Assembly (NCBI GenBank): GCA_951813325.1
Contig: OX638350.1
Coordinates: 1,901,954 to 1,965,953, forward strand
DNA: 64,000 nucleotides
DNA from: an uncultured Acidimicrobiales bacterium
GTDB taxonomy: Bacteria > Actinomycetota > Acidimicrobiia > Acidimicrobiales > Bin134
Direction: 5' to 3'
The position numbers and the translations under genes were made by a program. Under the pieces are notes generated by a model. That model saw nothing but the letters and a program-made list of their open reading frames with translations. It was not told the DNA's origin and did not search any database. This document shows positions 4,048-19,460 of the stretch, piece by piece; position 1 is the stretch's first letter, and the number at the start of each line of letters is the position of its first letter.

Positions 4048-4244
4048 CCGCAAGTACTCGTGCTCACTGTCCAGCTGCCCCCCACTGCCTCGCACAGCGT
4101 CTCGCTGGTGATCCGGGATTTGTCGATGTTGTCCCCTGTTTCAGGGGCGTTGTCGCTGAGTTGGGCGTAGACGATGATGGCCACGATGGCAGCAGCGGCG
4201 ATGCCAACCACGATCAAGATCATCTGGACGATTGCTGATTGCAT
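4044..4244 (-). CDS. Small hydrophobic membrane protein, candidate atypical Flp-type pilin
   Basis: 66 aa, TM helix, good RBS (gaggaag) right after tadC; lacks the canonical G/xxxxEY prepilin motif, so the pilin call is positional. Confidence 0.4.
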   Translation of the reverse strand: MQSAIVQMILIVVGIAAAAIVAIIVYAQLSDNAPETGDNIDKSRITSETLCEAVGGSWTVSTSTCG

Positions 4245-4277
4245 GTTTGTTCTTCCTCGGAGAAGCTGCCGATGGCC

Positions 4278-5030
4278 TCAGATCACGAAGATCACGGCAG
4301 CCATGACGACGAGACCAGCGATTCCAGCCACCAGAGTGACTGTGGTTCCGATAGCCCGGCTGAGCTGGTCGATCGCCAGGCGTCTTTCGGACTCCAAGGT
4401 CCGAACTGATCGGGACAGGGACTTGTCCAGCAAGTCCGATGACGCGGCTCCGGCCCTTTCGGCGGCCACCACCGACGCCAGCAGCGGCGCGGCGGGGGAA
4501 CCGGCGATGGCCTCGGTGACCGCGGGCAGCGGGTCTCGTCCAGCGTCCAGGGCCGCCCCAATGGCGCCCTGAGCCACGGAGAAAGCCTGGCCCGATACCT
4601 TCAGCGCGGCGTTGACCGCAGCGGCGTTGATGGGTTGGCCCGCCGAGGTCAACAGCCTCAGCTTCCGCATCCACTCGAGCATCTTCTGGTCCCGCTCACT
4701 GCGGTAGGCCGTGGCGACAAACGCCTGAATGGCGGCTGGCACCAGCCGGGGAAGCCACGTTCCGGCTATCACCGCCAGGGCCAATCCCGCGGCCCTCCCG
4801 GACATTGAAAGCCCCGTCAAACCACCGATAGCTGCCCCTGCGCCGGCCAGAAGCCAGCCTGTCAAAGAAATCCGACTGGGCGGCCATCCCATCGCAGCAG
4901 CTTGAATCGCGGTCCGGCTGTTGGTCTTGGGCGGGGTGAGCAGTAGAACGGCCACCACAGCCACCCCCGAAAACCCGGACAGCAAGATCATCGCCCCATC
5001 CGCCACGCGGGGGCCAGCACTCGGGCGCAC
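4278..5030 (-). CDS. tadC: Tad pilus assembly membrane protein TadC (T2SS-F domain)
   Basis: Polytopic membrane protein with GspF-like cytoplasmic domain; operon position. Confidence 0.7.
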   Translation of the reverse strand: MRPSAGPRVADGAMILLSGFSGVAVVAVLLLTPPKTNSRTAIQAAAMGWPPSRISLTGWLLAGAGAAIGGLTGLSMSGRAAGLALAVIAGTWLPRLVPAAIQAFVATAYRSERDQKMLEWMRKLRLLTSAGQPINAAAVNAALKVSGQAFSVAQGAIGAALDAGRDPLPAVTEAIAGSPAAPLLASVVAAERAGAASSDLLDKSLSRSVRTLESERRLAIDQLSRAIGTTVTLVAGIAGLVVMAAVIFVI

Positions 5031-5803
5031 AGCGCGGCGGTCAGCACCGCGACAAGAAGCATCAATTGCTGCCCCACCGGCGACGTCAGCCAGCGCCCCA
5101 CGTCTTTGGCAGCAAATCCGGCAATGGCCAGCATGCCGACGGCCATTGCCACAGTGACCGCGACTTGGGGCATGAGCGCGGCCACGTAGCGGTGGAAGTG
5201 GCGGGCAGTCTCGGCCGCCTCGGTGGCTTCATCAGCCAGCACGCCGGCCAAGCCCACCCACTGCGAACCACCCCGGAATGCCTCAGCCAGCACGGTGGCC
5301 AGCATCTCGGCAATCGGCCGCCCGATAGTGGCGGAAAAGCGGTTGGCCGCCTCCACAAGGCCGCCGGTCTCGCATTCAGAGGCCATCAGCCGGGCAGCGG
5401 CCCCGACCCGGCCGGGAATCAACGGGGCGGCTTGACGTACAGCTTCCACCACGGTGGGGGCCACCAATGCCTGGTTGGCCAATCCGTTGGTCAGCTGGGC
5501 AAGTTCGTCAGCCTCCCGCAGACTGCGAGAAGACCGGATCTGAACCGCCATGGCCCACACGCCTACGCCGCTCAGTACCATCACAGCCACACCGGTGGTC
5601 GCTCCCACCAGCACGAGCCCCGCGGTGAATACCGAAGCCGCCACAACGGCGGCCAGAAGCGGGCCGGCTGGAAGTGAGCGTCGCTGGGCCAGAACCAGGC
5701 TGCCCATCAGTAGAACTGAGGGACTCCCGGCCGACGTCGGCCACCAGACGATGGCCATCAATGCGAGCCCAGCGGCCAAGGCCACCGCGACCTGCGCACT
5801 CAC
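4988..5803 (-). CDS. tadB: Tad pilus assembly membrane protein TadB (T2SS-F domain)
   Basis: T2SS-F-like membrane protein; GTG start overlaps tadA stop (GTGA). Confidence 0.65.
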   Translation of the reverse strand: MSAQVAVALAAGLALMAIVWWPTSAGSPSVLLMGSLVLAQRRSLPAGPLLAAVVAASVFTAGLVLVGATTGVAVMVLSGVGVWAMAVQIRSSRSLREADELAQLTNGLANQALVAPTVVEAVRQAAPLIPGRVGAAARLMASECETGGLVEAANRFSATIGRPIAEMLATVLAEAFRGGSQWVGLAGVLADEATEAAETARHFHRYVAALMPQVAVTVAMAVGMLAIAGFAAKDVGRWLTSPVGQQLMLLVAVLTAALCARVLAPAWRMGR

Positions 5804-7428
5804 AGGATCCTCGCTGAAGAGGCCGCGCCCGATGAGAACGAAGCTGTCGACCCCCTGTCGGCGATCGCGTGCAGGTCCTCAGCTGAACAGGGATCGATCC
5901 CTACCGATTGGTACAACCGCTCGACCTGGCCGACTGGCCGGCTCATGGGAGTGGCCCACCGCTGGCCGGGGCGAAGCGTCCACAGGCACTCGGTGTCGAT
6001 GGTGTCATTGCGGTCGTCGTAGCTGACGATCTGGGTGACATCGGAGATCACCCGCTCTCCGTGCTCGTTGCGGCCCAGCCACACCAGCAGATGGACGGCG
6101 ATAGCGGTCTGCTGGCGGGCGAACCGGGGATCAGCACCCTCGCTGCACGCGTATGACAGCAGTTTGGCCAGCACCCCGGTCCCAGGCTGGCTGTGCAGGG
6201 TGACCAGGCAGCCGTTGAGCCCGCTGCTCATGGCGTCGAGCAGCGCGAGGGTGCCTTCGCCCCTGGTTTCGCCGATAACCAGCTTGGAGGAGTTGGCCCG
6301 CTTGGCGTCGCGGATGTGGTCGCTCATGGTGAGCTTGCCCACGCCGTCGTTGTTGGCATCCCGGGTGAGGCGCTCGTAGCTGTTGAAGTGGATGCCGTAC
6401 TGGGCCAACCGGAGCTCGGGGGTGTCCTCGATGGTGTCGATCCTCTCCGAGCCATCGACGGAGGCCAAGAGGGCCTGGCAGAGCGTCGTCTTGCCGCCCC
6501 CCATGGCCGCGGCAACCACGATGTTGGCCCGGATCGGTCCCGACACCGCTCCGAGGAGGATCTTCTGCAAACGCGGCCCGGCCACATGGAGGTCGTTCAA
6601 GGTGGCCTTTCCGGCCATATTCGACCTGAGCACCATGGTAGGCGGATGGCACATGAACGCCTCGGCATGGAGCCGCCACCGGTCGCCGAGTCGGATGTCC
6701 AGGCGACTGTCGAGCACATCGAATCGTTGAGGCTGTCCGCCGGAGAAGCTGGCCAGGTGCCGGGCTGTCTCGATCAGCTCGTCGTTGGACGAGAACGGTG
6801 AGTTGCGACGCTCCCGCTGACCCTCCGCTCGGTGGACGATCATGCACTCTCCCCCTCGAATCTGAAACTCCTCAACCCCGGTTTCATCCAGCAGGTCGGC
6901 TAGTCGGGTTTGAGCAGCTTGCGATGCCGACCACAGATGGGTCTCGCGGTCGAGCGGATCGAGCCGGCGGGGCGCGACCGCGGTCCACGCCAGCCTGCGC
7001 CCGAGCCGGTGCAGTCGGCGAAGGTGGTTTCGAGCCGGTTCGGGCGGCACCCAGAGGGTGAAGACCCTTTGGCGGCGCGAGCGTCCCGTGTCCGGCTGGT
7101 CGTCCGACACGACCACCGACACAATCGGGGTCGAGCGGCGCGATCCGGTGTCCATCCGCAGCAAGGAGCGCACGTCGGTGCTGTCGGAGATGGTGATCCA
7201 TAGCACCGCAGCGGCTGATGCGACCGCCGATTCCAGACGGAGCTCCGGCTCGTCGTCGCGCATAGACAGCACCGTGGGATGGCCGGCGGCCGACGCCTGG
7301 TCTACCTCAGCGGGAGAAGTGGCCAAGACCACGCCAGGGGCAGTGCTGGAGATCCCGTCCAACACCCCGTTCATCACCTGCTCAACAGCCTTGGCGTCGA
7401 GCCAGCGGTCTCCAATAGCCAAAAGCAT
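5800..7428 (-). CDS. tadA: Tad secretion ATPase TadA/CpaF with ~150-aa N-terminal extension
   Basis: Walker A 'AAAMGGGKTTLCQAL', VirB11/CpaF-like C-terminal half; start chosen at the ATG (7428) that overlaps the upstream gene stop (ATGA). The ORF track shows a longer 612-aa frame. Confidence 0.85.
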   Translation of the reverse strand: MLLAIGDRWLDAKAVEQVMNGVLDGISSTAPGVVLATSPAEVDQASAAGHPTVLSMRDDEPELRLESAVASAAAVLWITISDSTDVRSLLRMDTGSRRSTPIVSVVVSDDQPDTGRSRRQRVFTLWVPPEPARNHLRRLHRLGRRLAWTAVAPRRLDPLDRETHLWSASQAAQTRLADLLDETGVEEFQIRGGECMIVHRAEGQRERRNSPFSSNDELIETARHLASFSGGQPQRFDVLDSRLDIRLGDRWRLHAEAFMCHPPTMVLRSNMAGKATLNDLHVAGPRLQKILLGAVSGPIRANIVVAAAMGGGKTTLCQALLASVDGSERIDTIEDTPELRLAQYGIHFNSYERLTRDANNDGVGKLTMSDHIRDAKRANSSKLVIGETRGEGTLALLDAMSSGLNGCLVTLHSQPGTGVLAKLLSYACSEGADPRFARQQTAIAVHLLVWLGRNEHGERVISDVTQIVSYDDRNDTIDTECLWTLRPGQRWATPMSRPVGQVERLYQSVGIDPCSAEDLHAIADRGSTASFSSGAASSARIL

Positions 7429-8132
7429 CAGCTGGCCGTCGGGTCTTCGCGATCGCCGACAAGGGCGCCAGCGGTAGATCTGGGGTCGCATGGGGGCCAA
7501 CCGGCAGGCGGCGACTCCCAAATCCACCACTGCTGATCTGACAGCACGGCGGCCAGTTCGGAGCCGGCCTCTACGGTCACACTCGCTGTGGCGCCTTCGC
7601 CGGCCACCGACACCAAAGTCACAAGAGCGGCCGCACATCCCCCGGGCGAGGGAGAGAATACGGCTCGGTCACCTGCGACTGGACCGGGATCAGACCACAT
7701 CTCATCGCTCACCGTGACACTCATCAGCGTTGTCGTGCGGCGGTCATCACCGCTTTGGCGGCTGCGCAGCATCATGGGAGAGATCAGGGTTCCCTCGGGC
7801 ACGTCAACGGCCGCCACGGTTTCGGCCAGATCTAATGGATGGACAAAAAGAGCTGCCAAGTGGGCGGGAATGTGGACAACGGAGTGACCGCCCGGTGGAT
7901 GTCCCTCAGGCCAACGCTGGGCCGCGGCCACCACGGGCACTTCCACCGCAGCATCGCCGCCGCGGGACAACGCAGCAATCGCCGCGGCGGTGGCGACCAA
8001 GACTATGGCCGCGGCCAGCAAGCGCCACCGCAAGCTCACCGGCCAGGAGGTGGGCGACCACTGTTCGCTGCTGGGGCGGCTCACCACAGGGTTGCCTGCG
8101 GGCCGAGATACCCAGTCGGCTCGCGGAACCAA
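7428..8132 (-). CDS. CpaB/RcpC-like Flp pilus assembly protein (N-terminal TM, SAF-like domain)
   Basis: TM anchor 'LLAAAIVLVATAAAIAAL' followed by a soluble domain; translationally coupled to tadA. Confidence 0.45.
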   Translation of the reverse strand: MVPRADWVSRPAGNPVVSRPSSEQWSPTSWPVSLRWRLLAAAIVLVATAAAIAALSRGGDAAVEVPVVAAAQRWPEGHPPGGHSVVHIPAHLAALFVHPLDLAETVAAVDVPEGTLISPMMLRSRQSGDDRRTTTLMSVTVSDEMWSDPGPVAGDRAVFSPSPGGCAAALVTLVSVAGEGATASVTVEAGSELAAVLSDQQWWIWESPPAGWPPCDPRSTAGALVGDREDPTAS

Positions 8133-9424
8133 GACAGGTCAGAGGCGAGCACCTCGGTGTGCCGGCCACCCTGCCCAGAGGTGTACTTGACCTGCAACTG
8201 CCATTCCCAGAAGCCGCGGCGAGGGATCGCCCAGCGGCATCTTCCGTAGCGGTCCTCCCAGTCGGCGGTCAAAGAGAGCACCCTGTCGGCCGGAATGGTC
8301 CACGGTGGCAGATCAGCGGGCGAGCACCAGACAACCGGGGGGTCTGTGCGGGGAAAGGCCGCTTGGAACCACTGTTTGCGCTGCACGTCCAACCGATCCC
8401 ACAATGCGGCGGCTTGCTGAGCAGGTCCGGCGGCCGCCGAACTGCCGGGAGATCGGAGTTTGGCCAGATCAGAAGGCTCGTAGGGGAGCAGCTCTCGGAA
8501 CAACACGCCCACGGCTTTCGCCGTCCACCGGCAACCGCTCGCCGCGGCATCCACCACGTCGAGCGACTGCCCCGGCCGCTGAGCAATCCAATGTCGGACC
8601 GGGCTGCCAGCCGCCGAGGCCGCCGTCAAGAAGATCTGCCCTCCGGGAGTCTCCGGGTGGTGGTAGCCCGTGAACCCGCGTTCATAGGGAACGATCGACT
8701 CCCATCGCAGACTGCTCAGCAGCCTCTGGCGGGTGGCATCGCTCCACGCGGTGGTGCACACCTTGGGCTCGGGATTCGGATCGGACTCCCAAGGGCAGTT
8801 GCCGGGAATGCGGTCGGTCATGCACGGGGGCAGACAACCGCCGTTGGCGCACGGATTGGAGACGGGGGTGGGCTTGGGTTTCGGGGTGGCAGATGGCGTC
8901 GATTCCGGGGTCGGGGTTGCCGGGGTCGGGGTTGCCGGAGTCGAAGTCGGAGTCGAAGTCGGAGTCGCCGGGGGAGGGCTCTGTTGGCGGTGGTCGTGGT
9001 TGACGGGCACCCGCCGTTGCCCCGACCACCGGTAGTTGATATTCCGATGGCCGTTCCATCTGGTCCAAGTGCCTGGGCCAGTAGGCCGGGGCGTGCTGTC
9101 GTGGGGTCCGTGGGCGCAGTTGTCCGTATTCCGGCACCGACTCTTCGCCGCCGTGGCAATCACGGTTATTCCGCACTGGTCAATGATCTCCACCGTGCAG
9201 TTTGCAGGCACGCGGGCGCGGTAGTGGGTCCAGTAGTTGACGTGGGTCCACGTCTCTGTGCATCCCCGCACGCCGGAAGGGCACCTCCCAGCCCCGCTGG
9301 CGGGAACATCCGTGGTTTTGTCGTGGGCCAGAGCGGGCCGGGAGTCGGGGACCGAAAGCGCAATGCCGACAATGAGCAACACGGCAAGCGCCATCCCGAT
9401 CGCCGTCCGCAGTACCGCCGTCAT
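8081..9424 (-). CDS. Secreted Cys-rich protein with Pro/Thr-rich linker; unknown function, tad-operon associated
   Basis: Internal start at ATG 9424 (MTAVLRTAIGMALAVLLIVGIALS signal/TM) overlapping the upstream stop (ATGA); PT-repeat linker; many Cys. Confidence 0.5.
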   Translation of the reverse strand: MTAVLRTAIGMALAVLLIVGIALSVPDSRPALAHDKTTDVPASGAGRCPSGVRGCTETWTHVNYWTHYRARVPANCTVEIIDQCGITVIATAAKSRCRNTDNCAHGPHDSTPRPTGPGTWTRWNGHRNINYRWSGQRRVPVNHDHRQQSPPPATPTSTPTSTPATPTPATPTPESTPSATPKPKPTPVSNPCANGGCLPPCMTDRIPGNCPWESDPNPEPKVCTTAWSDATRQRLLSSLRWESIVPYERGFTGYHHPETPGGQIFLTAASAAGSPVRHWIAQRPGQSLDVVDAAASGCRWTAKAVGVLFRELLPYEPSDLAKLRSPGSSAAAGPAQQAAALWDRLDVQRKQWFQAAFPRTDPPVVWCSPADLPPWTIPADRVLSLTADWEDRYGRCRWAIPRRGFWEWQLQVKYTSGQGGRHTEVLASDLSWFREPTGYLGPQATLW

Positions 9425-10536
9425 CGGATCGCCTCGAAAGCCCGATAGCCACAGCCGGTGGCTGAATCGCTGGGCGGACGGCTTTCCCGTCCGGTCTGGC
9501 GGGCCCACACATAGCCCAAGAACGCGTGATAGCAGTCGTGGGGGCTGTCGGGGAGGCCGATACCGGCGCTCTCCGCGGCGTGAGCCTCCACGATTCCGAT
9601 GAGGGGTTCCCAGCACGAGGGAAGCGGGTTGCCGGATTCTTCCGAGTCGGTCGGATACCTCGGGTTGGGGTTGGCGGCCACAACCTCTGCGCAGCGATGC
9701 GCCAGCCAACCCGGCGGGCGGGGTGCTGCCGGGTCGTAGCCGACCGACGGGCACACGGCCAAGGGGCGGGCACGGGCATCTCCCTGGAGGGAGTGGGCCG
9801 TTACTGCATCGGCCACGCAGGCCACACCGTCATCGGTCCACCAGTACCGGGCAAAGATCTCGAAGAGGTGGGCGAGTCCGCCCAGACAGGAGTACACGCT
9901 TTGGGCGGACACTGCCCCGTACACCGCATCAGACGTGCTGAGAGCTGGTTCGACGTGGCGGCGAGCGCACCGCTGCACCCAGGAGCGGGATTCTGGGGTG
10001 TTCTCGATGTTCCCGTCCCAATGCCCCTGGAGATCCCTGACTTCATCCAGAGCCGGGTGGTCGACTGGCACCTTGAGGATGACGACTTTGCGGTTGCCGT
10101 CCCAGGTATACACATCGTCGCCGAACTGGTGGAACGTGCTGTTTTGGGCAGCCTCCAGGAGCGAGGCCGCTTCTGCCGGGACCACTTTGTCGGCCTCAGC
10201 GGACACGGCCTTCGGGGTCGCAGGCGGCGGCACGGGCGCAACGCCAGAGCCATTCCGATTTGCCCCAGCATTTGCCAGTGGAACCTCAACGGCATCTGGG
10301 ACCGCGGCCAACGAGGTGGCCGGGACAGGTGTGAGGGCAAGAGTCGGTTCGGATCGGTTGGCGGGCAGCCCCGCGGCGCCGGGCAGACGTGTGCCCGGGT
10401 CGACGGAGAACTCGCGGGGCACACCGCTGGGTGCAGTATTCGGCTCCGAACTCGACCCATTGGAGGCAGGACCGCAGCCCGTGTTGATCAGCAAGAGTGG
10501 GACAACCAAGAATTTGGCTCGCCAAAGGGCACCCAT
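9421..10536 (-). CDS. Putative secreted/lipoprotein, Cys-rich; unknown function, first gene of the tad operon
   Basis: Signal peptide 'FLVVPLLLINTGCG' with possible lipobox Cys; AT-rich promoter-like region upstream (10560-10680). Confidence 0.5.
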   Translation of the reverse strand: MGALWRAKFLVVPLLLINTGCGPASNGSSSEPNTAPSGVPREFSVDPGTRLPGAAGLPANRSEPTLALTPVPATSLAAVPDAVEVPLANAGANRNGSGVAPVPPPATPKAVSAEADKVVPAEAASLLEAAQNSTFHQFGDDVYTWDGNRKVVILKVPVDHPALDEVRDLQGHWDGNIENTPESRSWVQRCARRHVEPALSTSDAVYGAVSAQSVYSCLGGLAHLFEIFARYWWTDDGVACVADAVTAHSLQGDARARPLAVCPSVGYDPAAPRPPGWLAHRCAEVVAANPNPRYPTDSEESGNPLPSCWEPLIGIVEAHAAESAGIGLPDSPHDCYHAFLGYVWARQTGRESRPPSDSATGCGYRAFEAIR

Positions 10537-10674
10537 TTGCCCTCCGTTCGAAATGTCTCGATGGGGGCCTATGAGGCCGATAATCCTGGCTGCCGCACCA
10601 GTGGAGGTGACTTTACTTCATATCCACTCATATGTCTATAGCTAATTTTGATAATTATCATTCCCAACACCCAA

Positions 10675-10698
10675 GAAAAGCGTTGAGAATACATGAAC
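10675..10698. repeat. Left copy of an 18-bp direct repeat (aagcgttgagaatacatg) bounding a ~7.4-kb island
   Basis: Exact 18-nt match with 18089-18110; AT-rich motif in a high-GC background. Confidence 0.7.
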
Positions 10699-11216
10699 CG
10701 TGCTGTCGCTATCCCCGATGGGTTCCAGCGGGCTCAGCGGCTTCGGGATGTTCGTCGGTTTCGCCACTTTCTCACTGGTCATGGGGGTCGGCTCCATCAC
10801 GCGCCGACACTCAAACTAGTTAGAGCAACCGCCCCACTGCTCTGAAATCGCGGTCCTCACACCGTGGAGCGCGTCGTCTCTTGGGCGCGCAATACGGAAA
10901 TCTGCTGCCTGCTGCCTCTAGCTGAACAGCACCCAGGCGACCACGAGGAAGCTCGCCGCCTGGAACATCGTCTCTAAGTTGTCTAGCGCAAACCCGAGCA
11001 CCTGCATTTGCCTGCCTCTAGCGCTGGATGGGTGTTACAGCACCATTGTCCCCAACGCTGTGACAGTTCCCCGATGCCAGTGGCAGCGCCCTTCGAGGAC
11101 CGCGCCGCGGTCCAGAGGTGGATTTGGCGGCTGCTGGAATACTGCGTGCGACGTAGCGGGCACCCGCTGACGGCCTTGGTGAGGGGGTGCCCAGAGACGA
11201 GCAGGATTGACGGACC

Positions 11217-12706
11217 ATGGTCGAGTTGCGGGACTACCAGGTGAAGGCCATAGCCGACATCAACGCACTTTGGCCGTCTGCCAGATCGATCATCCTGCAG
11301 ATGGCGACCGGCGCCGGCAAGACGATCACGGCCTCGGCTTTGCTCAGGGGGAGTTCGAGTCCATTCCCAACCTTGTGGTCGGGTGGATGGTGCATACGGG
11401 CCACCTGCGGAAACAGGCAGCCGAGGCTTTAGATCTGCTCGGTGTGCAATGGGTTGACTGGTCCACTGTTCGTGCCTCACAGCGCCGTTGGGAACCAGGG
11501 CAAGCGCATTGCTTCGGCTCCACGATGTCCCTGCCGCCTGGCCCTGCCACCCGCGACGCATTGCTGATCGTGGACGAATGCCATCGCTCGGCGAGCGACA
11601 CCTACGCCAAGCAGATGAACCGGCGCGGCGGCAGGAACCGTCACCGCATATGGGGCCGGTGCCTGGGGCTGTCGGCGACTCCGGCCCGATACGGCTGGCC
11701 CGATGCAATCAGCCGCTCTCAGGGGTTGTTCGCGCGGCAGTGGGATGCGATGGTCTGCGGCCCGTCGCCCGCCGAACTGGTCGAGGCGGGCCACCTGGCC
11801 GACATTGTGGTGAAGTCCATAGACGAAGCGGGCGGCGACTGGGAGGTGCTGAGACCTGACCCGATGCGCGCCAGCGGGTTCTCGTCGGCATCGGAACAGA
11901 GATGGGAGCGCACGCTGTCGGTCGACGCGGCTGCGGCCATCATCAAGCGCGTGGAGCCGCGCCCGACCATTTGGTTCTGCGCGCCAACAGCGGCAGCAGC
12001 TCAAGTGGTGAAGCTGCTGGGGCGCAGCAGCGCCAAGATCCTCGCCGAAACGTCCTACAGCGAACGTCTGGACCTCTTCGACGCGTTCAGGGAAGGCAGC
12101 ATCGAGCACCTGGTGACCGTGCGGGCACTGCTGGAGGGTACCGATATCCCCGCAGCGAAGCGGATCGTCCAGCTAGCTCCGTCGCGCTCTCGGGTGCTGC
12201 TGTCTCAGGCGGCAGGCCGCGGAAGCCGACCGCCAGGCGTGATGGAGCTATGCGACTTCTCCCAAAGCTGGTCCCACATCGGAGCGCACCCGCTAGACGA
12301 CGTGCCATGGCACCTCTCCCTCGATCCGACTGCCGACTCTGAGCATGTCCATTCGGCCACAGCGCGCACCCGCACCTGCCCCACGCCAGGCTGCGGAACA
12401 GTCATATCGCCGCGCACGCAGCGCCTCTGCCCCACATGCAATTTTGAGGTAGTCCGCCGATGTACGGCGTGCTGGCAGCCCATGTCCGAGGACGCTGAGG
12501 ACGGCACTCACCGCCGCTGCCGCAAATGCGCCGCCGACGAGCGCTCCCTGCACACTGAATGGGCACGGCGCCACGGAACCGAGCCGCTGCCAGATCGCGA
12601 CATCACCGAGGATTCCGGCGGCGAGACGATCGCCGCTAGTTTGGAGGCCCTTGAATCTCTCCGAGCGGCGGCAGCGGTCCTTGAACAGCACACAGGACAG
12701 AGATGA
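11217..12706 (+). pseudogene. SF2 DEAD/DEAH-box helicase with C-terminal double Zn-ribbon, disrupted by a frameshift at a G5 run (~11346-11350)
   Basis: N-terminal motifs 'DYQ' and Walker A 'MATGAGKT' lie in frame 0 (ORF 11217-11432). DEAH 'DECH', 'SAT', 'QAAGRGSR' and a CxxC..CxxC tail lie in the frame of ORF 11207-12706. One extra G would restore ...ALLRGEFESIP... Confidence 0.7.
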
Positions 12707-12894
12707 CTCGCCAAACCGACTCTAAGAGAGGGGAGCAGCGCGTCTTGACCCAGGTCCGACTGCCGGTCGATCTTTGGGAGCAGCTCCGCTACGAGGCCGA
12801 CCAGCGGGACGTGTCGATGAATTTCCTGGTCGTGCGCGCCATCACCCGGTACCTGCCGACCTTGACCCCAGTGGAGGATTTCGTCGATGGCTGA
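12703..12894 (+). CDS. Ribbon-helix-helix (CopG/Arc/ParD-like) DNA-binding protein
   Basis: 'RVLTQVRLPVDLWEQLRYEADQRDVSMNFLVVRAI' RHH pattern; ATG overlaps helicase stop (ATGA). Confidence 0.5.
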   Translation: MTRQTDSKRGEQRVLTQVRLPVDLWEQLRYEADQRDVSMNFLVVRAITRYLPTLTPVEDFVDG

Positions 12895-12927
12895 CGTGCG
12901 CCGACACCGGGTGAATGCCGCGATCTG

Positions 12928-13113
12928 ATGCCCGGAGACCGCTTGGTGTCCCGCTGGCAGAACGGCAAGCGGGTGGCCATCCGAGAGAAGCGCAAAATCG
13001 TGGTGGCAGAGGTGAAGCCGTTGAACGGGAGGACACTCGTCGAACTGGACACAGGCGAGCAGTTCAACTGCCCGTCGGGGTTGATGTTCGGCGTGGACAG
13101 GGAAACGCCATGA
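12928..13113 (+). CDS. Small hypothetical protein
   Basis: ORF track only; basic N-terminus, no recognisable domain. Confidence 0.25.
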   Translation: MPGDRLVSRWQNGKRVAIREKRKIVVAEVKPLNGRTLVELDTGEQFNCPSGLMFGVDRETP

Positions 13114-13250
13114 GCAAACCGCTGGTCAGAGCATCCATCTCACGGGCGGCGCGCTGGTAGTTGAGCCCGAGGACGAGAACCCTCGCCGCCAGTACGCGGG
13201 AACACCACGAGGGAGGAATGCAGCCTTCGGCCAGTGGATGCTCGACACGT

Positions 13251-14711
13251 TCAGTATTTGTGCCATTGGTCGCCGTGAGGAGGTCGGGTACACCTTTTTT
13301 TGCTCTTGACGCCGATGTGCTGACAGCGGCCTGTGCTCGCCGCAGATGGTGGCGGTGCTATCGGCTTGATCTGGTCTGGCAAGTCGGAATCGAACGAATT
13401 GGGAGGCAGCGGGGGGACGCCGGCCATCTGCGACAGGCCAGCGCAATGGGACGCGCGGTATTCGATCCGGTCCGCCAGCTTCCGAATCACCTCGCTGCCA
13501 GCGAATTCAGCGGAAAGCGACTGGAGCGCCTGGTCTAAGGCAGATGGAGTCTGCCTGGCCATGTCCTCTGCCCTGGCAACGGCCTCCTCGCCGTCGCAAC
13601 CCATCGACTCCGCCGTCTCGTGCCATGCCGAATGCCTGTCGGCTTTGGCCACCGTGTACTTCTTCCCGATCTTCATGGCCAGCTTCGTCCTGTTGACCGA
13701 ATGCCAGTCAGGCTCGTAGGGGAGCACAGAGGTGATGTCGTACAGGGGGGCGAACCGCACCGTGCCCCCCCTCAACAGGAAAGAATAGTTCTTGGCGTGG
13801 GCATCGGTCCCGACGATGATCCAGTTGTAAATCAGAGCATCCAGGAACCTGTGGGCATCGCTGTCGGGTTGGGAGCTGTGCTTTCTGATCGACTCCGCGA
13901 TCTGTTGCGGCGAGGGGCCGCCGTCGCCTTGGTATTTGTCGTCGGGGTGGACCCCCAGTGCCTGGCACATGTCCTCTTGGTGGATTCTGGCCGTTTGCCC
14001 GTCCGCGCCAGCAAAGCGGTCGAAGCGACTGATGACGATGCTCTGGATCGGCCCGAAGCTGGCTATCTGGGTTTGAACCGCCAGCAGCCCCAGGTTCGAT
14101 GCTGTTTGCAGGCATACATGCTCATTCAACGCCTGGTCCGGCAAGTCCGGGTCATTCATCGTCGGCTTGATGATGTGCGTGCTCGGCTCCGCACCCATTG
14201 GAATTCCGTACTTCCCCCCAGAGAACACGACGGCCGTTTTCGCTTGAGCCCCAGAGAGGGAGAAACGCCCAAAGTTGCTGCTTTCTGGCCCGTGCCAAGT
14301 CGTTCTGTGGTCCCTGAGGCTCTTGATCAGAGTGACGAGCCGCTCCTCCGTCAGCCAGTCAACGCTGCCTCCTCGCCCCATCAGGCCACCGACTTCATCT
14401 GCTGAGCAGAACTGCACAGCGCCAGCGCAATCATGCCCCACTGGGCTGGCCAGTATCGCTATCGCGCTGCTGCCCTTGATGCCGAACTTGCGTCGCCACT
14501 CTCTCCGCACTTCCAGGTTGTCGGGCAACAGACCCTCCAGCCAGGAGTCAACATCGTGCTGGCCCGCCACAAGCGGAATGCTCACGGAGAGCGGGGTGGA
14601 GAGCGGGTCGGCCAGGTACTCGTCAAAGTAGGAGAACGTAGCTCGGCCCGCACGACCTCCGACTGCTGCGCCTGCGGGCTTGCCATGCACGATGACTTCA
14701 AGACGGGTCAT
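13251..14711 (-). CDS. hipA: HipA-family serine/threonine kinase toxin
   Basis: HipA N-terminal domain, 'SLSGAQAK' and catalytic 'GTDAHAKNYSFLL' motifs. Confidence 0.85.
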   Translation of the reverse strand: MTRLEVIVHGKPAGAAVGGRAGRATFSYFDEYLADPLSTPLSVSIPLVAGQHDVDSWLEGLLPDNLEVRREWRRKFGIKGSSAIAILASPVGHDCAGAVQFCSADEVGGLMGRGGSVDWLTEERLVTLIKSLRDHRTTWHGPESSNFGRFSLSGAQAKTAVVFSGGKYGIPMGAEPSTHIIKPTMNDPDLPDQALNEHVCLQTASNLGLLAVQTQIASFGPIQSIVISRFDRFAGADGQTARIHQEDMCQALGVHPDDKYQGDGGPSPQQIAESIRKHSSQPDSDAHRFLDALIYNWIIVGTDAHAKNYSFLLRGGTVRFAPLYDITSVLPYEPDWHSVNRTKLAMKIGKKYTVAKADRHSAWHETAESMGCDGEEAVARAEDMARQTPSALDQALQSLSAEFAGSEVIRKLADRIEYRASHCAGLSQMAGVPPLPPNSFDSDLPDQIKPIAPPPSAASTGRCQHIGVKSKKRCTRPPHGDQWHKY

Positions 14712-14997
14712 CTGGGCCCTTTGCGAATTGGTCCAGGTGGTCGTCCAGCTGGAACCCAGATCGGTCTATCGGGTGTATGGCTAGGTCGCAGTCAAGAGCC
14801 TTCAGCAGCTTCAGCAGCGTGGATGCCTTGAGGTCGGCCCTTGCAGACTCGACCGCGGAAATTTGCGGGCGGGAAACGCCGGACCTGTCTGACAGCTCTG
14901 CCTGATTCCACCCCAACTCCTTCCGCGCCTGCCTGAGGGCAGCGCCGAGCCGAGCCGCAGAACTAAGCCCAAGTTGCACACGACGAACAGGTGTCAT
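14698..14997 (-). CDS. hipB: HipB-like XRE-family HTH antitoxin
   Basis: HTH 'LRQARKELGWNQAELSDRSGVSRPQISAVE'; overlaps hipA start by 14 nt. Confidence 0.8.
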   Translation of the reverse strand: MTPVRRVQLGLSSAARLGAALRQARKELGWNQAELSDRSGVSRPQISAVESARADLKASTLLKLLKALDCDLAIHPIDRSGFQLDDHLDQFAKGPDDPS

Positions 14998-15197
14998 TGC
15001 TGTTCCTGCCCCCTTTGTCCCCTAAGGACTACATTTCACCATTCAACATGTTTTGTAGTCTGCACATTACAATACTGTCTGAACCGCAGAATGTAAAGAG
15101 AAAGCTACAACAGCGGCTTTGCCGCGCTCACCCTGTTCGTGCGAGATTGCCCGAGCCTGCTCTCTTGATTGCCCCGACAACAGCCGGGTACCCGCAA

Positions 15198-15380
15198 TCA
15201 CCTCGTCAGCCTCTTCCCGCTCAGCGCCAAAACCAGCCCGCACACGGCATTCTCCAAGCGGGCGTTAAATTCCTGGCCTTCTTCAGTTTCCTCGCCCTTC
15301 AACGGGATGTTGCAACTGTCCCGGTCCCACTGACCCACGATCACCTCTAGATCTTCAGGGTCTATTTTCAACTCGAACAT
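15198..15380 (-). CDS. Small acidic hypothetical protein (60 aa, MFELKIDPEDLEVIVGQWDRD...)
   Basis: Internal ATG of ORF 15198-15821 located in a lower-GC patch; speculative. Confidence 0.2.
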   Translation of the reverse strand: MFELKIDPEDLEVIVGQWDRDSCNIPLKGEETEEGQEFNARLENAVCGLVLALSGKRLTR

Positions 15381-15871
15381 TGTCCTCCTCCTTCGGTCAG
15401 GGCGGCTTCCCGCCATTGTCCCGACCGATCCCCCCACCACTCCGTCTCCCGACCCCTTTGCCGTCTCCGAGCCTCCGCCGCGGCTTTGCCCGCCGGACCA
15501 GATCGGCGTGGACGGCGACGGCGACGGGAAGATCGACGCCTGCCAGGACAGAGACGAAGAAACCGCCGAGCTGCTCGACGCCGGAGCGGGTCCCGGGACA
15601 CGACAGCGAGCACCCGCCATCCACCCCAGAGCCCGTCGAGCCCGGGAACCGCACCGTGTGGACCATAGACGCGGCGACGGGCGCGCCGGTCGTGTCGCGG
15701 CTGTCGCCGCAGGGCTCGACGATACTGGCGGGAACTCAGCCCGTCGACTACATACCCGCTGCCGACCCGGTGTGTTGCGTCTGACTTCGCGCGACGGTTT
15801 CCCGGTTTTTTCAGGCCGCATGTGGCAGGGTTGAGTCGCAGGCCAAGAATGTCGCCGTCGAGGCCGAGAGG

Positions 15872-17647
15872 GTGATGGGCTGCAGCAAGGAGATGTGGCA
15901 GATGTCGTGCCTGGCCCGCCAGGGCGACCTGGGCAGATTCTCCGAGCTGTCTCCTTCGCAGCGCCGCTCGGAGCTTGTCGACCCGCTGGTGGGGGACATG
16001 TTCGACGACCTCGTGTGCGAGGTGGACGAGCTTGTCGCCGAGGAGCGCGGGGCCAGCCTCGAAGCGGCGAGCAAGCTGGCGGACGCCGAGTCCGGTGCCG
16101 ACGACCGCGCTGACGCCGAGGCCGCGCTCAAGTCTGCTGCCGCCGAGGCGAAGAAGGCGGAATCGGACCTGGCGGAGATAATCGCTTTGAACGCCCGCGT
16201 AGCCGAGCACGAGGCGGACATCTGCAGGCTGGCCGAGGCCGAGCGGGCCGAAGATGAGCTGGCCGAGACAGCAGCCCGCAGAGAGCGGCGCAAGCGGGAA
16301 GCCGAGGAATTGGAGTAGTGCATCGAGGAGCGCACGGCGCTTCTGGCCGCGTCGGAGTCCGACGTGGAGAGGCTGGCCGAGGCCGAGCGCACAGCTGGCG
16401 AAGCCCATGCTTCCGCTGCCGCCGCCAGCGAGAAGGCTCTGCGGAGGGCTGCTGAGGCAGCGAGCCCTGCCGCGGCGGCCAAGCGGCGGCTGAAAGCGCT
16501 CGTGGCCGAAGACGGGTCTGAGTGCTGGGTGTGCGGGTCGGACCTGTCCGACGACCGCAAGGACGAGCTGGTGCGCGGGATGAAGCGGGACATCCTGGTG
16601 GCGAGGAAGCGGGACGAAGCGGCGAAAGCCGCCAGGCGCAGCGACCTCTCAGAAGCGGAGCGCGCCAGGTCTCGGAAGGAGCGGTCCGCACGCGATCTGG
16701 AGAGCGAGATCGCCGCAGCGGAGGCGAAGCTGGGCGCGCTGGCCGACGAGTCGGGCGAGGCGACTGTCGCATCCGAGCTGGCCGCGGGCGCGCCCGCGCT
16801 GCGCGAGAAGGTCTCGGCGATCCCCGAGGAGGTCCGGCGTGTGATCGGCGACGGGGGAGTGGACGACAAGGAACTAGAAGCGGCCCGCCGCCGCGCCGCT
16901 TCGGCCCAGCAGTGGGTGGGGCAGGCCAAGTCGGGGGTTTCGAAGGCGAGAGCTTCCGAGAAGTCCCTGCCCGCCCTGGGCGAGGCTGCGGACGAGGCCG
17001 GGGTGTCGGAGAAGGCGGCCGACCTGTTGAAGGACTTTCTGAGGCCCGCGGGGATACCCCACCTGCTGATGTCGCGCCGCACCGCCGAGATCGAGCGGAA
17101 AGTCAACGCAGTGCTCGCTTCGCTGAGGACGGCGGGGGAGGGACGGTCCCTGGAGATGCGGTTCCGCACGTCGATGCCGAACTCGGGGAACCCCGCGCTC
17201 GGCATCGAAGTCGATCTGGGCGACGACGGGTGGAGGGACTACGCGCAGATGTCGGGCGGGATGCGGGCGAGGGTGGACATCTCGCTGAGGGTCGGGCTGT
17301 CCCAGGCGGCCGGGGTCCGGTGCAGGATGTTGATCATCGACGAGGGCGCGGCCATGCTCGACGAGGAGGGAGTCGACTCGCTGCTGGAGGTGGTCAGGGT
17401 GCTCATCGACTCGGGTTTGGTGGACTTGGTGTTCCTGGTCACCCACGACGAGCGGTTGAAGGGGACTCTGCCTGCGACGGTGGAGGTCGGCACCGACGAG
17501 GGCGCGGCGGGCACGGCCGCCTGGTGGCCACGCACACGGAGGTCCCCCGCAGGAAGGCAGCAGCATGACGCGCAGCCGCCGCCCCGCGAAGTTCACCGCT
17601 CCCCGGCGCACAGAGCGCCGAATCTGTCGGTGGCGACAACGTGGTAG
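15872..17647 (+). pseudogene. SMC/SbcC/Rad50-like ATPase remnant: coiled-coil plus C-terminal ABC signature/Walker B/D-loop/H-loop only; N-terminal Walker A head absent; internal stop at 16316
   Basis: 'MSGGMRARVDISLRVGLSQAAGVRCRMLIIDEGAAMLD...VFLVTHDERL' in ORF 16364-17647; the upstream coiled-coil ORF 15872-16318 is separated by a TAG; no Walker A in any frame upstream. Confidence 0.55.
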
Positions 17648-18030
17648 AAGCTCCGCCACTTTCGACCATCTTGAGTCGCCACCTCGACTTCGAGCCCGCG
17701 GTCCAGCTTGAGGCCCTTGTCGTTCACGCGCACACCCCACTCCCCGTTGTCCAGCCGGGCGGTGGATCCATGCCAGAGGGCCATTCCAACACGGTAGATG
17801 CGGGCGCGGACCTCTTCGCCTGACGCCCTCTGAGCGACGCGTCGTGGACGCCGCCAGCAGCGCTGTGTCGAAGCAATCACAAGCACTCCGCTGTTATCCC
17901 AGGTCAGCGGCTCGCGCGCCGCCATCGTTTGACCGCTCGTGGACACCTGGTGGACAGGCTCCAAAACTGATGTGTGCTGCATCCTCACCTGAGTCGGCTG
18001 TAGTCCCCTGCTGCCGGGCTCTTCGCACAT
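17593..18030 (-). CDS. Hypothetical protein
   Basis: ORF track only. Confidence 0.25.
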   Translation of the reverse strand: MCEEPGSRGLQPTQVRMQHTSVLEPVHQVSTSGQTMAAREPLTWDNSGVLVIASTQRCWRRPRRVAQRASGEEVRARIYRVGMALWHGSTARLDNGEWGVRVNDKGLKLDRGLEVEVATQDGRKWRSFYHVVATDRFGALCAGER

Positions 18031-18088
18031 CCGAAACCGCGTTCAGAAGAGGAAAGGCCCGGGCCGCTGATGACTGCCGTAACGCCCG

Positions 18089-18110
18089 AGAGAAGCGTTG
18101 AGAATACATG
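18089..18110. repeat. Right copy of the 18-bp direct repeat (aagcgttgagaatacatg)
   Basis: Exact match to 10677-10694. Confidence 0.7.
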
Positions 18111-18208
18111 TTATGTAAAGTTAATGGGAAGTTTCATGGCGCAATCGGCTTCGTCTGGTGTCCGATCTCGTCGTAGTTGGCGAAATCTCACACCCTTGGC
18201 GAATCGTC

Positions 18209-18553
18209 TCAGACGAGTGTCGAGTTGTCGAATGTCGGCTCGTACTTGCACGACGAGTCGGCGTAGTAGATCACCACGTCGAACCCGAGCGCATGCGGCA
18301 ACACGAAAGACGGGCAACCGGCGTCTCCGGTGCGGATCAGGTGCTGGATGTCGTCGTCGATGATCTGGGCACAGTCAAAGGCGACGAACTCGCGAATTGT
18401 CACCGGGGGGTCGGCCGATGAGAGGTGTTCCACAAGAGGCTGGAACTCTTTAAGCTCTTCTGGTGGGACGTCCTCCATCGACTCAACCCATCCAACGGCT
18501 TCCCCAACGAGCCGCTGGCCGCCCTTGCAACCCCGGACCAAAAAGACGGCCAA
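18209..18553 (-). CDS. Hypothetical protein (acidic, Cys-containing)
   Basis: ORF track; lower-GC surroundings. Confidence 0.3.
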   Translation of the reverse strand: MAVFLVRGCKGGQRLVGEAVGWVESMEDVPPEELKEFQPLVEHLSSADPPVTIREFVAFDCAQIIDDDIQHLIRTGDAGCPSFVLPHALGFDVVIYYADSSCKYEPTFDNSTLV

Positions 18554-18617
18554 CTGATCCTCTCGCTATTTTGATACCGGCCATCATGGCCGATCTGTCG
18601 CGACACTCATACTGTTT

Positions 18618-19334: not shown

Positions 19335-19460
19335 CCGGGTCTCGCCATCGCGCTTATCGACCTGTCGCCCTTGCATGACTGCTGCCGACGCGATCAGAGT
19401 TAGACTAGGCCCCGAATTCCGCTACCGTTGTCCGCTTGGCGGACAGATCATCGACAATTG

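What the first reader, a model, noticed from the sequence alone, without database searches (positions are those of the whole stretch)
11207..12894. Zn-ribbon SF2 helicase, frameshifted at a G5 run, translationally coupled to an RHH protein
The Q motif and Walker A (MATGAGKT) are in one frame. DECH, SAT, the Arg finger QAAGRGSR and a CxxC-rich C-terminal double zinc ribbon are in the +2 frame, with the switch at ctcagggggag (~11346). Adding one G gives a continuous ...ITASALLRGEFESIPNLVV... The stop overlaps the ATG of an RHH protein (ATGA). A helicase-RHH pairing inside a mobile island, next to hipBA, resembles anti-phage defence or conflict-system architectures. It is either inactivated or the product of a sequencing error.
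Basis: seen in the sequence. Interest (0 to 1): 0.6.

Follow-up and report, generated by a model that had tools for sequence, protein, structure and literature searches.

The report
Frameshifted mobile-element RadD-like helicase pseudogene
This is a DNA helicase gene of the kind phages and plasmids carry, left in an Acidimicrobiales chromosome inside a decaying mobile-element remnant and truly broken by a one-base deletion in some strains; it is an ordinary finding, not a new defence system.

Summary
Q motif and Walker A lie in the frame of ATG 11217. DECH, SAT, QAAGRGSR and eight conserved Cys lie in the -1 (= +2) frame, which ends at 12706. That stop overlaps the ATG of a 63-aa RHH-like ORF (ATGA).

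Three details need correcting. The intact protein is 496 aa, not 540. The lost base is an A (CTCAGGAGGGAG to CTCAGG-GGGAG, Arg44), not a G from a G6 run. The frameshift is not an assembly error: an independent metagenome scaffold on a different haplotype carries the same deletion, linked to the same private R350Q change. Eight other assemblies of the same locus are intact.

The protein is a distant RadD-like, phage-type SF2 helicase (two RecA domains, two zinc ribbons, helical tail). Its close family occurs only in metagenomes, inside phage- or plasmid-like replication modules.

The helicase-RHH adjacency is not conserved across that family. No defence system is matched beyond generic helicase-core similarity.

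The surrounding 7.4 kb is flanked by a 30-nt direct repeat. It also holds hipBA and a truncated SbcC-like gene, so it looks like a decaying mobile-element remnant.

Interest is low.

The parts
11217..11348 (+). Helicase codons 1-44 in the original frame. Q motif LRDYQ is at 11226-11240 and Walker A TGAGKT at 11307-11324.
   Evidence: Identical to residues 1-44 of the intact homologue P0001.
11346..11352 (+). Frameshift site AGGGGGA. One A is missing compared with AGGAGGGA in the intact alleles, so the deletion lies between 11348 and 11349.
   Evidence: Searches show eight intact assemblies. Searches show the same deletion in the independent scaffold L095.
11217..11432 (+). The ORF actually open from the native start. 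It gives a 71-aa product (44 native residues plus 27 out-of-frame) ending at TAG 11430-11432.
   Evidence: This exact product is on record on three other contigs.
11349..12706 (+). Helicase codons 45-496 in the -1 frame. DECH is at 11573-11584, SAT at 11672-11680 and motif VI QAAGRGSR at 12206-12229. Gene callers start this piece at ATG 11387 (439 aa), which has no P-loop.
12377..12529 (+). Eight conserved zinc ligands: C388, C393, C405, C408, C416, C419, C435 (His in some members) and C438. This is enough for two zinc ribbons after RecA domain 2, as in RadD ZF1/ZF2.
   Evidence: Family alignment. RadD domain map from PMC9049331. Weak alignment to RadD ZF2.
12703..12894 (+). 63-aa RHH-like ORF. 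Its ATG overlaps the helicase stop (ATGA), with AGGA about 7 nt upstream.
   Evidence: Homologues lie in L086 (70% identity, second gene downstream of the helicase) and in L087 (about 4 kb downstream).
12928..13113 (+). 61-aa ORF of unknown function that travels with the RHH ORF.
   Evidence: Homologues in L086 and L087. No Pfam, PADLOC, PHROG or NCBIfam hit.
13251..14997 (-). hipA (13251-14711, 486 aa) and hipB-like HTH (14698-14997, 99 aa), a toxin-antitoxin pair.
   Evidence: Pfam Couple_hipA, HipA_C and HTH_3/HTH_31 on the identical genes of L001. phrog_14837 at E 8e-46.
15872..17647 (+). SbcC/Rad50-like gene remnant. Two ORFs in one frame are separated by a single stop at 16316-16318, and the N-terminal Walker A head is missing.
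   Evidence: phrog_77 SbcC-like, E 9.5e-22, matching only profile positions 617-947 of 967.
10666..10695 (+). Left copy of a 30-nt direct repeat, AACACCCAAGAAAAGCGTTGAGAATACATG.
   Evidence: The 18-nt core occurs exactly twice in the window against 0 expected.
18081..18110 (+). Right copy of the 30-nt direct repeat (27 of 30 identical). Together with the left copy it brackets the 7.4-kb helicase-to-SbcC segment.

Best explanation
The gene encoded a 496-aa RadD-like, phage-type SF2 DNA helicase or translocase. Its layout is two RecA-like domains, then two zinc ribbons, then a helical tail.

It belongs to a metagenome-only clade carried by large phage- or plasmid-like elements of Actinomycetota. 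There it sits among replication and recombination genes. By inference, the intact protein used ATP to move on or remodel DNA during replication or recombination of its element, with the zinc ribbons helping to hold DNA.

In this window the gene lies in a 7.4-kb relic of such an element. The relic is bracketed by a 30-nt direct repeat in the chromosome of an Acidimicrobiales bacterium. It also holds an RHH regulator-like ORF, a small ORF, hipBA and a truncated SbcC-like gene.

A one-base deletion (A of AGG-AGG-GAG) after codon 44 separates the P-loop from the rest of the enzyme. From the native start only a 71-aa fragment can be made. The downstream piece lacks Q motif and Walker A, so the enzyme is dead.

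The deletion is a real allele that segregates in the natural population alongside intact alleles. This is recent pseudogenisation of a dispensable mobile-element gene.

Shown: the domain make-up, the lesion, its presence in independent assemblies, and the contexts of relatives. Inferred: the biochemical activity, the replication/recombination role, and loss of function.
For: Identity of the protein:
- Pfam ResIII and Helicase_C score above their cut-offs.
- phrog_16 'DNA helicase' matches residues 1-448 at E 7.3e-44.
- The best solved-structure match by sequence is E. coli RadD, at 4.7e-11 for the single sequence and 4.7e-26 for the family profile.
- RadD is also the best match by fold: Foldseek 7r7j at E 8.5e-17 over 521-545 columns.
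- BFVD top hits are phage SSL2-type helicases, down to E 4e-21.
- 849 phage records carry distant homologues, annotated 'DNA helicase' in most of the records listed.
- RadD has the same RD1-RD2-ZF1-ZF2-CTD layout (PMC9049331).

Family and contexts:
- About 30 members at 45-99% identity are all intact and come only from metagenome sources. All helicase motifs and 7-8 Cys are invariant.
- L086 holds a sliding-clamp-like gene and an endolysin-like gene.
- L087 holds long arrays of tiny ORFs.
- L088 is a 212-kb contig whose name carries a '_c' suffix (circular, if that suffix means so). It has WhiB, a methyltransferase, DnaA_C, DUF3846 and HNH.
- L004 and L005 are 530-556-kb '_c' contigs with a D5 primase, DnaB, an RNA ligase and HipBA.
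- L003 has RuvB nearby.

The lesion:
- Eight assemblies read AGGAGGGAG.
- The window and L095 read AGGGGGAG.
- L095 differs from the window by 15 SNPs, a 2-bp indel and a 12-bp indel, yet shares the private R350Q change. It adds G294D at a Gly conserved in at least 90% of the family.
- Over 16.6 kb compared with L001, this is the only frame-breaking indel inside a gene.

Evidence that the surroundings are a relic:
- A truncated, stop-interrupted SbcC-like gene.
- A transposase HTH-only ORF.
- The flanking 30-nt repeat.

Host: malate synthase G is 82% identical to that of an Acidimicrobiales MAG.
Against: - No biochemical or expression data exist for any member of the clade.
- Similarity to RadD and to phage helicases is only 20-28% identity, so the exact activity (helicase, translocase or RecA accessory factor) is open.
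- No integrase or other proof of mobility was found in the 7.4-kb segment, and a search for an empty site found nothing. The 'relic' status therefore rests on gene content and the repeat.
- Only one of the three other frameshift-bearing contigs was read base by base.
- Low-level -1 slippage of tRNA-Gly on G-GGG-G could in principle yield some full-length protein with Gly44. Three intact relatives have Gly at that position.
- The family was almost undetected in IMG/VR (one 28% hit), so the carrier elements are not proven to be phages.
Confidence: 0.8

Rival explanations
1. The frameshift is a sequencing or assembly error, and the gene is intact in the organism.
For: - Eight other assemblies of the same locus, 99.4-99.7% identical, are intact.
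- The lesion lies in a purine-rich low-complexity context.
- The window also has a private 2-bp deletion 263 bp upstream.
- No reads are available.
Against: - The exact 71-aa frameshift product is recorded on three other contigs.
- L095, a scaffold from another sample, has the identical deletion on a different haplotype: 15 SNPs apart, and without the window's 2-bp and 12-bp indels.
- Both frameshift alleles share a private linked SNP, R350Q, that is absent from all intact alleles compared.
- The lost base is an A, not a unit of a homopolymer.
- All other in-gene indels in the 16.6 kb compared are multiples of three.
Confidence: 0.05
2. Helicase plus RHH, possibly with the 61-aa ORF and hipBA, is an anti-phage defence or conflict cassette that has been switched off in some strains.
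For: - PADLOC PbeA models hit the helicase (E 1.4e-23 and 2.2e-20), and TIGR04095 dnd_restrict_1 gives 62 bits.
- The cassette sits in mobile DNA beside a HipBA toxin-antitoxin pair.
- A hipBA pair also lies 7 kb from a 49%-identical family member in L004.
- Presence/absence polymorphism of function is common for defence genes.
Against: - The PbeA hits cover only the helicase core (profile positions 251-417 and 553-617 of about 680). The N-terminal 250 residues of PbeA are absent.
- The TIGR04095 score is 62 bits against a cut-off of 600.
- No PbeB, PbeC, PbeD or dnd partners, nor any other coherent system, appear among ten neighbouring proteins.
- The RHH ORF and the 61-aa ORF have no PADLOC hit.
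- The helicase-RHH adjacency is absent from L003, L004, L005 and L088, and is interrupted in L086 and L087.
- Relatives sit beside replication genes.
Confidence: 0.07
3. The shift is programmed, through -1 ribosomal frameshifting or transcriptional slippage, or it is a reversible phase-variation switch. Full-length helicase would then still be made in a regulated way.
For: - tRNA-Gly on GGG (11349-11351) can re-pair with GGG at 11348-11350.
- The product would read LLRGEFES. Gly44 is natural in P0002, P0003 and P0004.
Against: - There is no X-XXY-YYZ slippery heptamer in the zero frame (read directly from the sequence).
- The 89 nt downstream fold no better than shuffled sequence (z = +0.61).
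- All other family members shown (P0001-P0029 full length; P0030, 347 aa, covers only half the query), and eight near-identical alleles, have a single ORF.
- The G5 run arose by loss of an A, which slippage cannot restore.
- The frameshift lineage carries extra non-synonymous changes (R350Q, G294D), as expected under relaxed constraint.
Confidence: 0.03
4. It is the host's own chromosomal RadD (YejH) DNA-repair orthologue, which happens to be broken.
For: RadD is the top solved-structure match by sequence and by fold, with the same domain order. JGI names distant homologues 'DNA repair protein RadD'.
Against: - The NCBIfam RadD equivalog model scores 63.5 bits against a cut-off of 720.
- Identity to RadD is about 20%.
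- Close relatives lie in phage- or plasmid-like contexts, not in conserved chromosomal neighbourhoods.
- The locus has lower third-position GC than the core genes of the window.
Confidence: 0.05

Closest known systems
E. coli RadD (YejH), PDB 6JDE / 7R7J
   Same: - An SF2 ATPase with two RecA-like domains followed by two tandem zinc-binding elements and a C-terminal domain.
- Best PDB match by sequence (profile E 4.7e-26) and by fold (Foldseek E 8.5e-17).
- The Q, I, II (DExH), III and VI motifs are conserved.
   Different: - Only about 20% identity, and far below the NCBIfam equivalog cut-off (63.5 versus 720 bits).
- 496 aa against 586 aa, with a shorter, purely helical tail.
- Carried by mobile elements rather than being a chromosomal repair gene.
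- The SSB-binding features of RadD were not examined.
Phage 'DNA helicase' family phrog_16 (SSL2/RadD-like SF2 helicases of temperate-phage replication modules, for example in mycobacteriophages, Klebsiella, Streptococcus and Xanthomonas phages)
   Same: - Strongest family match, E 7.3e-44 over residues 1-448.
- Homologues occur in 849 phage records.
- The BFVD structural top hits are these proteins.
- Relatives of the window gene sit in comparable replication-type gene neighbourhoods.
   Different: - At most 28% identity to any catalogued phage protein.
- The clade is essentially missing from IMG/VR and from the phage and plasmid collections.
- Its carriers include 200-550-kb contigs named as circular, of unknown nature.
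PbeA of the PbeABCD phosphorothioation-dependent defence system (PADLOC) and the DndFGH-type restriction helicase (TIGR04095)
   Same: They share the SF2 helicase core (PADLOC E 1.4e-23; TIGR04095 at 62 bits).
   Different: - Only the core aligns.
- The PbeA N-terminal region is missing.
- There are no PbeB, PbeC, PbeD or dnd genes nearby.
- The TIGR04095 score is ten-fold below its cut-off.
Archaeal and eukaryotic XPB / Rad25 (SSL2)
   Same: A DExH SF2 DNA translocase core. It ranks third and fourth by profile among PDB sequences (E 1.8e-13) and is a recurrent Foldseek hit.
   Different: It has no damage-recognition domain, RED motif or thumb insert that was identified here. It has zinc ribbons instead of the XPB C-terminal extension.

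Membership tests
Superfamily 2 helicases (ResIII + Helicase_C) | Two RecA-like domains with the Q motif, Walker A (I), DExH (II), SAT (III) and the arginine-finger motif VI. | tested here: met
   - Pfam ResIII scores 52.3 bits (cut-off 22.5) and Helicase_C 38.9 bits (cut-off 23.5).
- The motifs are invariant in 29 family members.
- The AF2 model shows two alpha/beta domains.
- In the window itself the motifs are split between two frames.
RadD (YejH) equivalog | A score at or above the curated NCBIfam NF053632 cut-off of 720 bits. | tested here: not met
   63.5 bits.
RadD (YejH) equivalog | The architecture RD1-RD2-ZF1-ZF2-CTD. | tested here: met
   - Eight conserved zinc ligands follow RD2.
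- RadD is the top Foldseek hit, aligned over 521-545 columns.
- The RadD domain map comes from PMC9049331.
RadD (YejH) equivalog | SSB interaction and RecA-accessory activity. | not testable with these tools
   This needs biochemistry.
phrog_16 phage DNA helicase | A significant full-length match to the family profile. | tested here: met
   E 7.3e-44 and 151 bits, residues 1-448 against profile positions 270-659 of 986. The family profile is longer than the protein, so the match is to its core.
PbeABCD defence system (PbeA) | A full-length PbeA match that includes the N-terminal region. | tested here: not met
   Only profile positions 251-417 and 553-617 are matched.
PbeABCD defence system (PbeA) | Partner genes pbeB, pbeC, pbeD and a dnd modification cluster in the neighbourhood. 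| tested here: not met
   A PADLOC scan of 12 neighbouring proteins found none.
DEAD-box RNA helicases | Motif II is D-E-A-D, with the other DEAD-box-specific motifs. | tested here: not met
   Motif II is DECH. DEAD-box structures rank far below RadD, XPB and the phage helicases.
Ribbon-helix-helix (CopG/Arc/MetJ) proteins, for the 63-aa ORF | A match to an RHH profile above its curated cut-off. | tested here: inconclusive
   - RHH_5 scores 20.6 bits against a cut-off of 26, at E 3.7e-4.
- phrog_582 Arc-like repressor matches at E 1.6e-4.
- The sequence pattern, a strand (TQVRLP) followed by two helices, fits an RHH.
Programmed -1 ribosomal frameshift sites | A slippery heptamer X-XXY-YYZ, a downstream stimulatory structure, and conservation of the shift in relatives. 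| tested here: not met
   - No heptamer is present.
- The downstream fold has z = +0.61.
- Family members P0001-P0029 and eight near-identical alleles are unshifted.

The most novel reading that the evidence does not exclude
The 7.4-kb segment bracketed by the 30-nt direct repeat could be a self-contained mobile conflict cassette of a new type. It holds the RadD-like helicase, the RHH ORF, the 61-aa ORF, hipBA and the SbcC-like remnant. On this reading the helicase is kept polymorphic (on or off) in a host-associated Acidimicrobiales population. The helicase clade itself would mark a so far uncatalogued group of 200-550-kb circular extrachromosomal elements of Actinomycetota.
Probability: 0.07. 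Interest if true: 0.5.

Novelty: new member of a known kind. Interest (0 to 1): 0.15.

Why it matters
It matters mainly for annotation. The gene should be labelled a genuine frameshifted pseudogene of a mobile-element RadD-like helicase. It should be neither 'corrected' as a sequencing error nor listed as a defence candidate.

It is also a clean small example of a mobile-element relic decaying in a natural population. Intact and broken alleles coexist, and the broken lineage has begun to collect further amino-acid changes.

The only wider interest lies outside the window. The helicase clade is confined to metagenomes and occurs on very large contigs named as circular. Their nature (megaplasmid, giant phage or something else) is unknown.

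Tried and rejected
- **G6-to-G5 homopolymer contraction.** Rejected. The intact alleles read AGGAGGGAG, so an A was lost.
- **Assembly error.** Rejected, because the same deletion occurs in an independent assembly on another haplotype with a linked SNP.
- **Programmed frameshift.** There is no slippery heptamer and no downstream structure.
- **Defence-system membership.** PADLOC was run on the helicase, the RHH ORF, the 61-aa ORF and ten neighbours. It gave only partial PbeA core hits, generic HTH hits, and weak SMC-like hits (mad3, LmuB).
- **Conserved helicase-RHH pairing.** Not found across family contexts.
- **Relatives in IMG/VR.** Only one hit, at 28% identity.
- **Empty integration site.** A metagenome search for the left flank, one repeat and the right flank found nothing.
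- **The window's own contig.** Looking up the window's 439-aa C-terminal product found no record.
- **Promoter and terminator scan of 10500-13400.** One weak minus-strand promoter-like site and no terminators, so it was uninformative.
Full report
**1. Observation**

The region was read and translated in all frames. From ATG 11217 the sequence encodes MVELRDYQVKAIADINALWPSARSIILQMATGAGKTITASALLR. This contains the Q motif and Walker A. The frame then runs out of sense and stops at TAG 11430-11432, giving a 71-aa product.

The frame shared with 11207..12706 encodes the rest of an SF2 helicase:
- DECH at 11573-11584
- SAT at 11672-11680
- QAAGRGSR at 12206-12229
- a Cys-rich block at 12377-12529

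It has Pfam ResIII (52.3 bits, cut-off 22.5) and Helicase_C (38.9 bits, cut-off 23.5).

The stop TGA at 12704-12706 overlaps the ATG at 12703-12705 of a 63-aa ORF. That ORF has weak but consistent ribbon-helix-helix signals: RHH_5 at 20.6 bits, below the cut-off of 26, and phrog_582 Arc-like repressor at E 1.6e-4.

**2. What exactly is broken**

A database search with the repaired protein found P0001, a 496-aa protein 99% identical to it. P0001 is encoded on two metagenome contigs, L001 and L002. These are 99.4-99.6% identical to window 4044-20640.

There the site reads CTC AGG AGG GAG TTC (L-R-R-E-F). The window reads CTC AGG GGG AGT. The lost base is therefore an A lying between GG and GGG, and residue 44 was Arg. 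The G5 run is a product of the deletion, not a contracted G6.

Over the 16.6 kb shared with L001, the other indels are as follows:
- +12 bp, in frame
- -18 bp, in frame
- -2 bp, intergenic
- a pair at the ragged end of the alignment

The helicase lesion is thus the only frame-breaking indel inside a gene.

**3. Real mutation or error**

Looking up the exact RHH protein returned six places (seven contigs carry it), and four of them were new assemblies covering the site. With L001, L002 and one NCBI metagenome record, eight assemblies read AGGAGGGAG. On that evidence alone the window looked like an outlier.

However, the exact 71-aa frameshift product is itself on record on three other contigs. 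One of them is L095, a 14.3-kb scaffold from ENA ERZ23495298. It carries the same deletion but differs from the window at 15 SNPs. It also lacks the window's private 2-bp and 12-bp indels.

Within the coding sequence, the two frameshift alleles share one private substitution, R350Q, that is absent from all five distinct intact alleles compared (six loci; L090 is the same scaffold as L002). L095 additionally carries G294D, at a Gly conserved in at least 90% of the family.

An identical deletion linked to an identical SNP, on two different haplotypes from independent assemblies, is a heritable allele and not an assembly artefact. Intact and broken alleles occur in different samples whose scaffold names share the prefix LUOR22-1.

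**4. What the protein is**

Matches found:
- The best family match is phrog_16 'DNA helicase', at E 7.3e-44 over residues 1-448.
- Distant homologues (at most 28% identity) occur in 849 phage records, and the records listed are mostly annotated 'DNA helicase'. They also occur in 93 plasmid records.
- Among solved structures the best match is E. coli RadD, by sequence (E 4.7e-11 for the single sequence, 4.7e-26 for the family profile).
- RadD is also the best match by fold. The AF2 model has pLDDT 73.7, and Foldseek gives 7r7j at E 8.5e-17 over 521-545 columns.
- Next in rank come SauUSI, XPB and the RIG-I-like helicases.
- In the viral structure library the top hits are phage SSL2-type helicases, down to E 4e-21.

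RadD consists of two RecA-like domains, two tandem zinc fingers and a C-terminal domain (PMC9049331). The family alignment here shows the same order, with eight conserved zinc ligands: C388, C393, C405, C408, C416, C419, C435 (Cys or His) and C438.

It is nevertheless not a RadD orthologue. The NCBIfam equivalog model gives 63.5 bits against a cut-off of 720.

**5. Where the family lives**

About 30 proteins at 45-99% identity were found (P0001-P0029 full length; P0030, 347 aa, covers half the query). All come only from metagenome sources and none carries a name. IMG/VR yielded only one hit, at 28% identity.

| Locus | Context |
|---|---|
| L086 | Small ORFs, a sliding-clamp-like protein and an endolysin-like peptidase |
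| L087 | About 60 tiny co-directional ORFs |
| L088 | 212-kb contig with a '_c' name suffix; WhiB, N6/N4 methyltransferase, Fic, DnaA_C, DUF3846, HNH |
| L004 / L005 | 530-556-kb '_c' contigs; D5-type primase, DnaB, RNA ligase, TnpB and (L004) HipBA |
| L003 | RuvB and a SocA/Panacea protein nearby |

These are replication or recombination neighbourhoods of mobile elements, not defence islands. Circularity of the '_c' contigs is read from their names only.

**6. The helicase-RHH pairing**

A tblastn search with the island proteins against these loci gave the following:
- In L086 the RHH homologue (70% identity) is the second gene after the helicase.
- In L087 it lies about 4 kb downstream.
- In L003, L004, L005 and L088 there is none.
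- The 61-aa ORF (12928-13113) co-occurs with the RHH ORF in L086 and L087.

The ATGA overlap in the window lineage is thus a local arrangement, not a conserved two-gene system.

PADLOC gave only helicase-core matches to PbeA (profile positions 251-417 and 553-617 of about 680). It gave nothing for the RHH ORF or the 61-aa ORF. For ten neighbours it gave only generic HTH hits, HipA-like hits (PDC-M03A) and weak SMC-like hits. The defence interpretation is not supported.

**7. The surroundings in the window**

The window is chromosomal DNA of an Acidimicrobiales bacterium. Its malate synthase G is 82% identical to that of an Acidimicrobiales MAG and 78% to that of 'Candidatus Poriferisocius'. 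Isocitrate lyase, MMPL and MFS genes lie nearby.

A Tad-like pilus operon, with T2SSE and T2SSF genes, lies upstream on the minus strand.

Downstream of the helicase lie:
- hipA and hipB (13251-14997, minus strand).
- An SbcC/Rad50-like gene. It lacks its N-terminal ATPase head and is interrupted by an in-frame stop at 16316-16318.
- An ORF with only a transposase HTH domain.

A 30-nt direct repeat (27 of 30 identical) lies at 10666-10695 and 18081-18110. Its 18-nt core occurs exactly twice in the window against 0 expected. The two copies bracket this 7.4-kb segment.

Third-position GC is lower here than in the core genes to the right. Together this looks like a decaying remnant of a mobile element. 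No integrase and no empty site were found.

**8. Mechanism**

Inferred from the fold and the contexts, the intact protein is an ATP-driven DNA translocase or helicase. It would act in replication or recombination of its element, with the zinc ribbons contributing to DNA binding, as proposed for RadD.

In the window allele, translation from the native start ends after 71 codons. The remaining ORF can start only at ATG 11387 and lacks Q motif, P-loop and the second beta strand, so no ATPase can form.

Rescue by -1 slippage on G-GGG-G is chemically possible and would give Gly44, which three intact relatives have. But several points speak against a programmed shift:
- There is no slippery heptamer.
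- The downstream RNA folds no better than shuffled sequence (z = +0.61).
- Family members P0001-P0029 and the eight near-identical alleles are unshifted.
- The frameshift lineage carries extra non-synonymous changes.

Because the RHH ORF starts inside the helicase stop, its translation may also be reduced in the broken allele. This last point is inference only.

**9. Verdict**

This is a genuine, recently arisen pseudogene allele of a mobile-element RadD-like helicase, inside a relic island. It is a new member of a known kind.

The 'sequencing error' option is rejected, and the defence hypothesis is not supported. Interest is low.

The only notable by-product is that this helicase clade is confined to uncatalogued, sometimes very large, circular-named metagenomic elements.

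Noticed in passing
window 10666-10695 and 18081-18110: A 30-nt direct repeat (27 of 30 identical, core AAGCGTTGAGAATACATG). It brackets the 7.4-kb helicase-to-SbcC segment, with AT-rich DNA just outside each copy. It could be an att-like scar or a repeated promoter or 5' end. The same two copies are present in L001 and L002.
   Followed up: partly
window 15872-17647: An SbcC/Rad50-like gene that is a pseudogene. Two ORFs in the same frame are separated by one stop (16316-16318), and the N-terminal Walker A head is missing. It matches only positions 617-947 of the 967-position phrog_77 profile. The window also has an in-frame 18-bp deletion at 16626 relative to L001 and L002.
   Followed up: partly
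L004, L005, L088 (ENA ERZ25072670 ctg256311, ERZ25067264 ctg835511, ERZ25071132 ctg817644): Family members sit on 212-kb and 530-556-kb contigs whose names are flagged circular ('_c'). These carry a D5 primase, DnaB, an RNA ligase, TnpB, WhiB, DnaA_C, DUF3846 and HipBA. They may be uncharacterised megaplasmids or giant phage-like elements of Actinomycetota.
   Followed up: no
window 1778-2053: A 42-nt tandem repeat, 6.6 copies at 96% identity. It lies inside a 505-aa minus-strand ORF (1097-2614) that has weak phage tail-fibre-like PHROG hits.
   Followed up: no
window 8905-8967: Short in-frame repeats of 15 nt and 12 nt in the 443-557-aa minus-strand ORF of the Tad-like operon. The window has one extra 12-bp unit relative to L001, L002 and L095.
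   Followed up: no
window 11086: A 2-bp (GC) deletion in the intergenic region 131 nt upstream of the helicase ATG. It is private to the window and absent even from the other frameshift allele, L095.
   Followed up: partly
window 4044-10536 (minus strand): A Tad/Flp-like pilus operon: a T2SSE ATPase at 5800-7638, a T2SSF protein at 4278-5030 and several small pilin-like ORFs. It lies immediately upstream of the island and has the same lowered third-position GC.
   Followed up: no
window 19428-24366; L001 18520-20475: Two MPAB_Lcp_cat oxygenase paralogues flank an MMPL transporter. Beyond window 20640 the otherwise 99%-identical contig L001 is arranged differently: it matches window 24369-22412 in reverse at 76% identity. 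This indicates a strain-level rearrangement.
   Followed up: no
window 12703-13113; L086 11682-12338; L087 15310-15850: The RHH-like ORF and the 61-aa ORF recur together in two phage- or plasmid-like relatives. They are adjacent in L087 and separated by one ORF in L086. They may therefore form a small conserved module of unknown function, independent of the helicase.
   Followed up: partly
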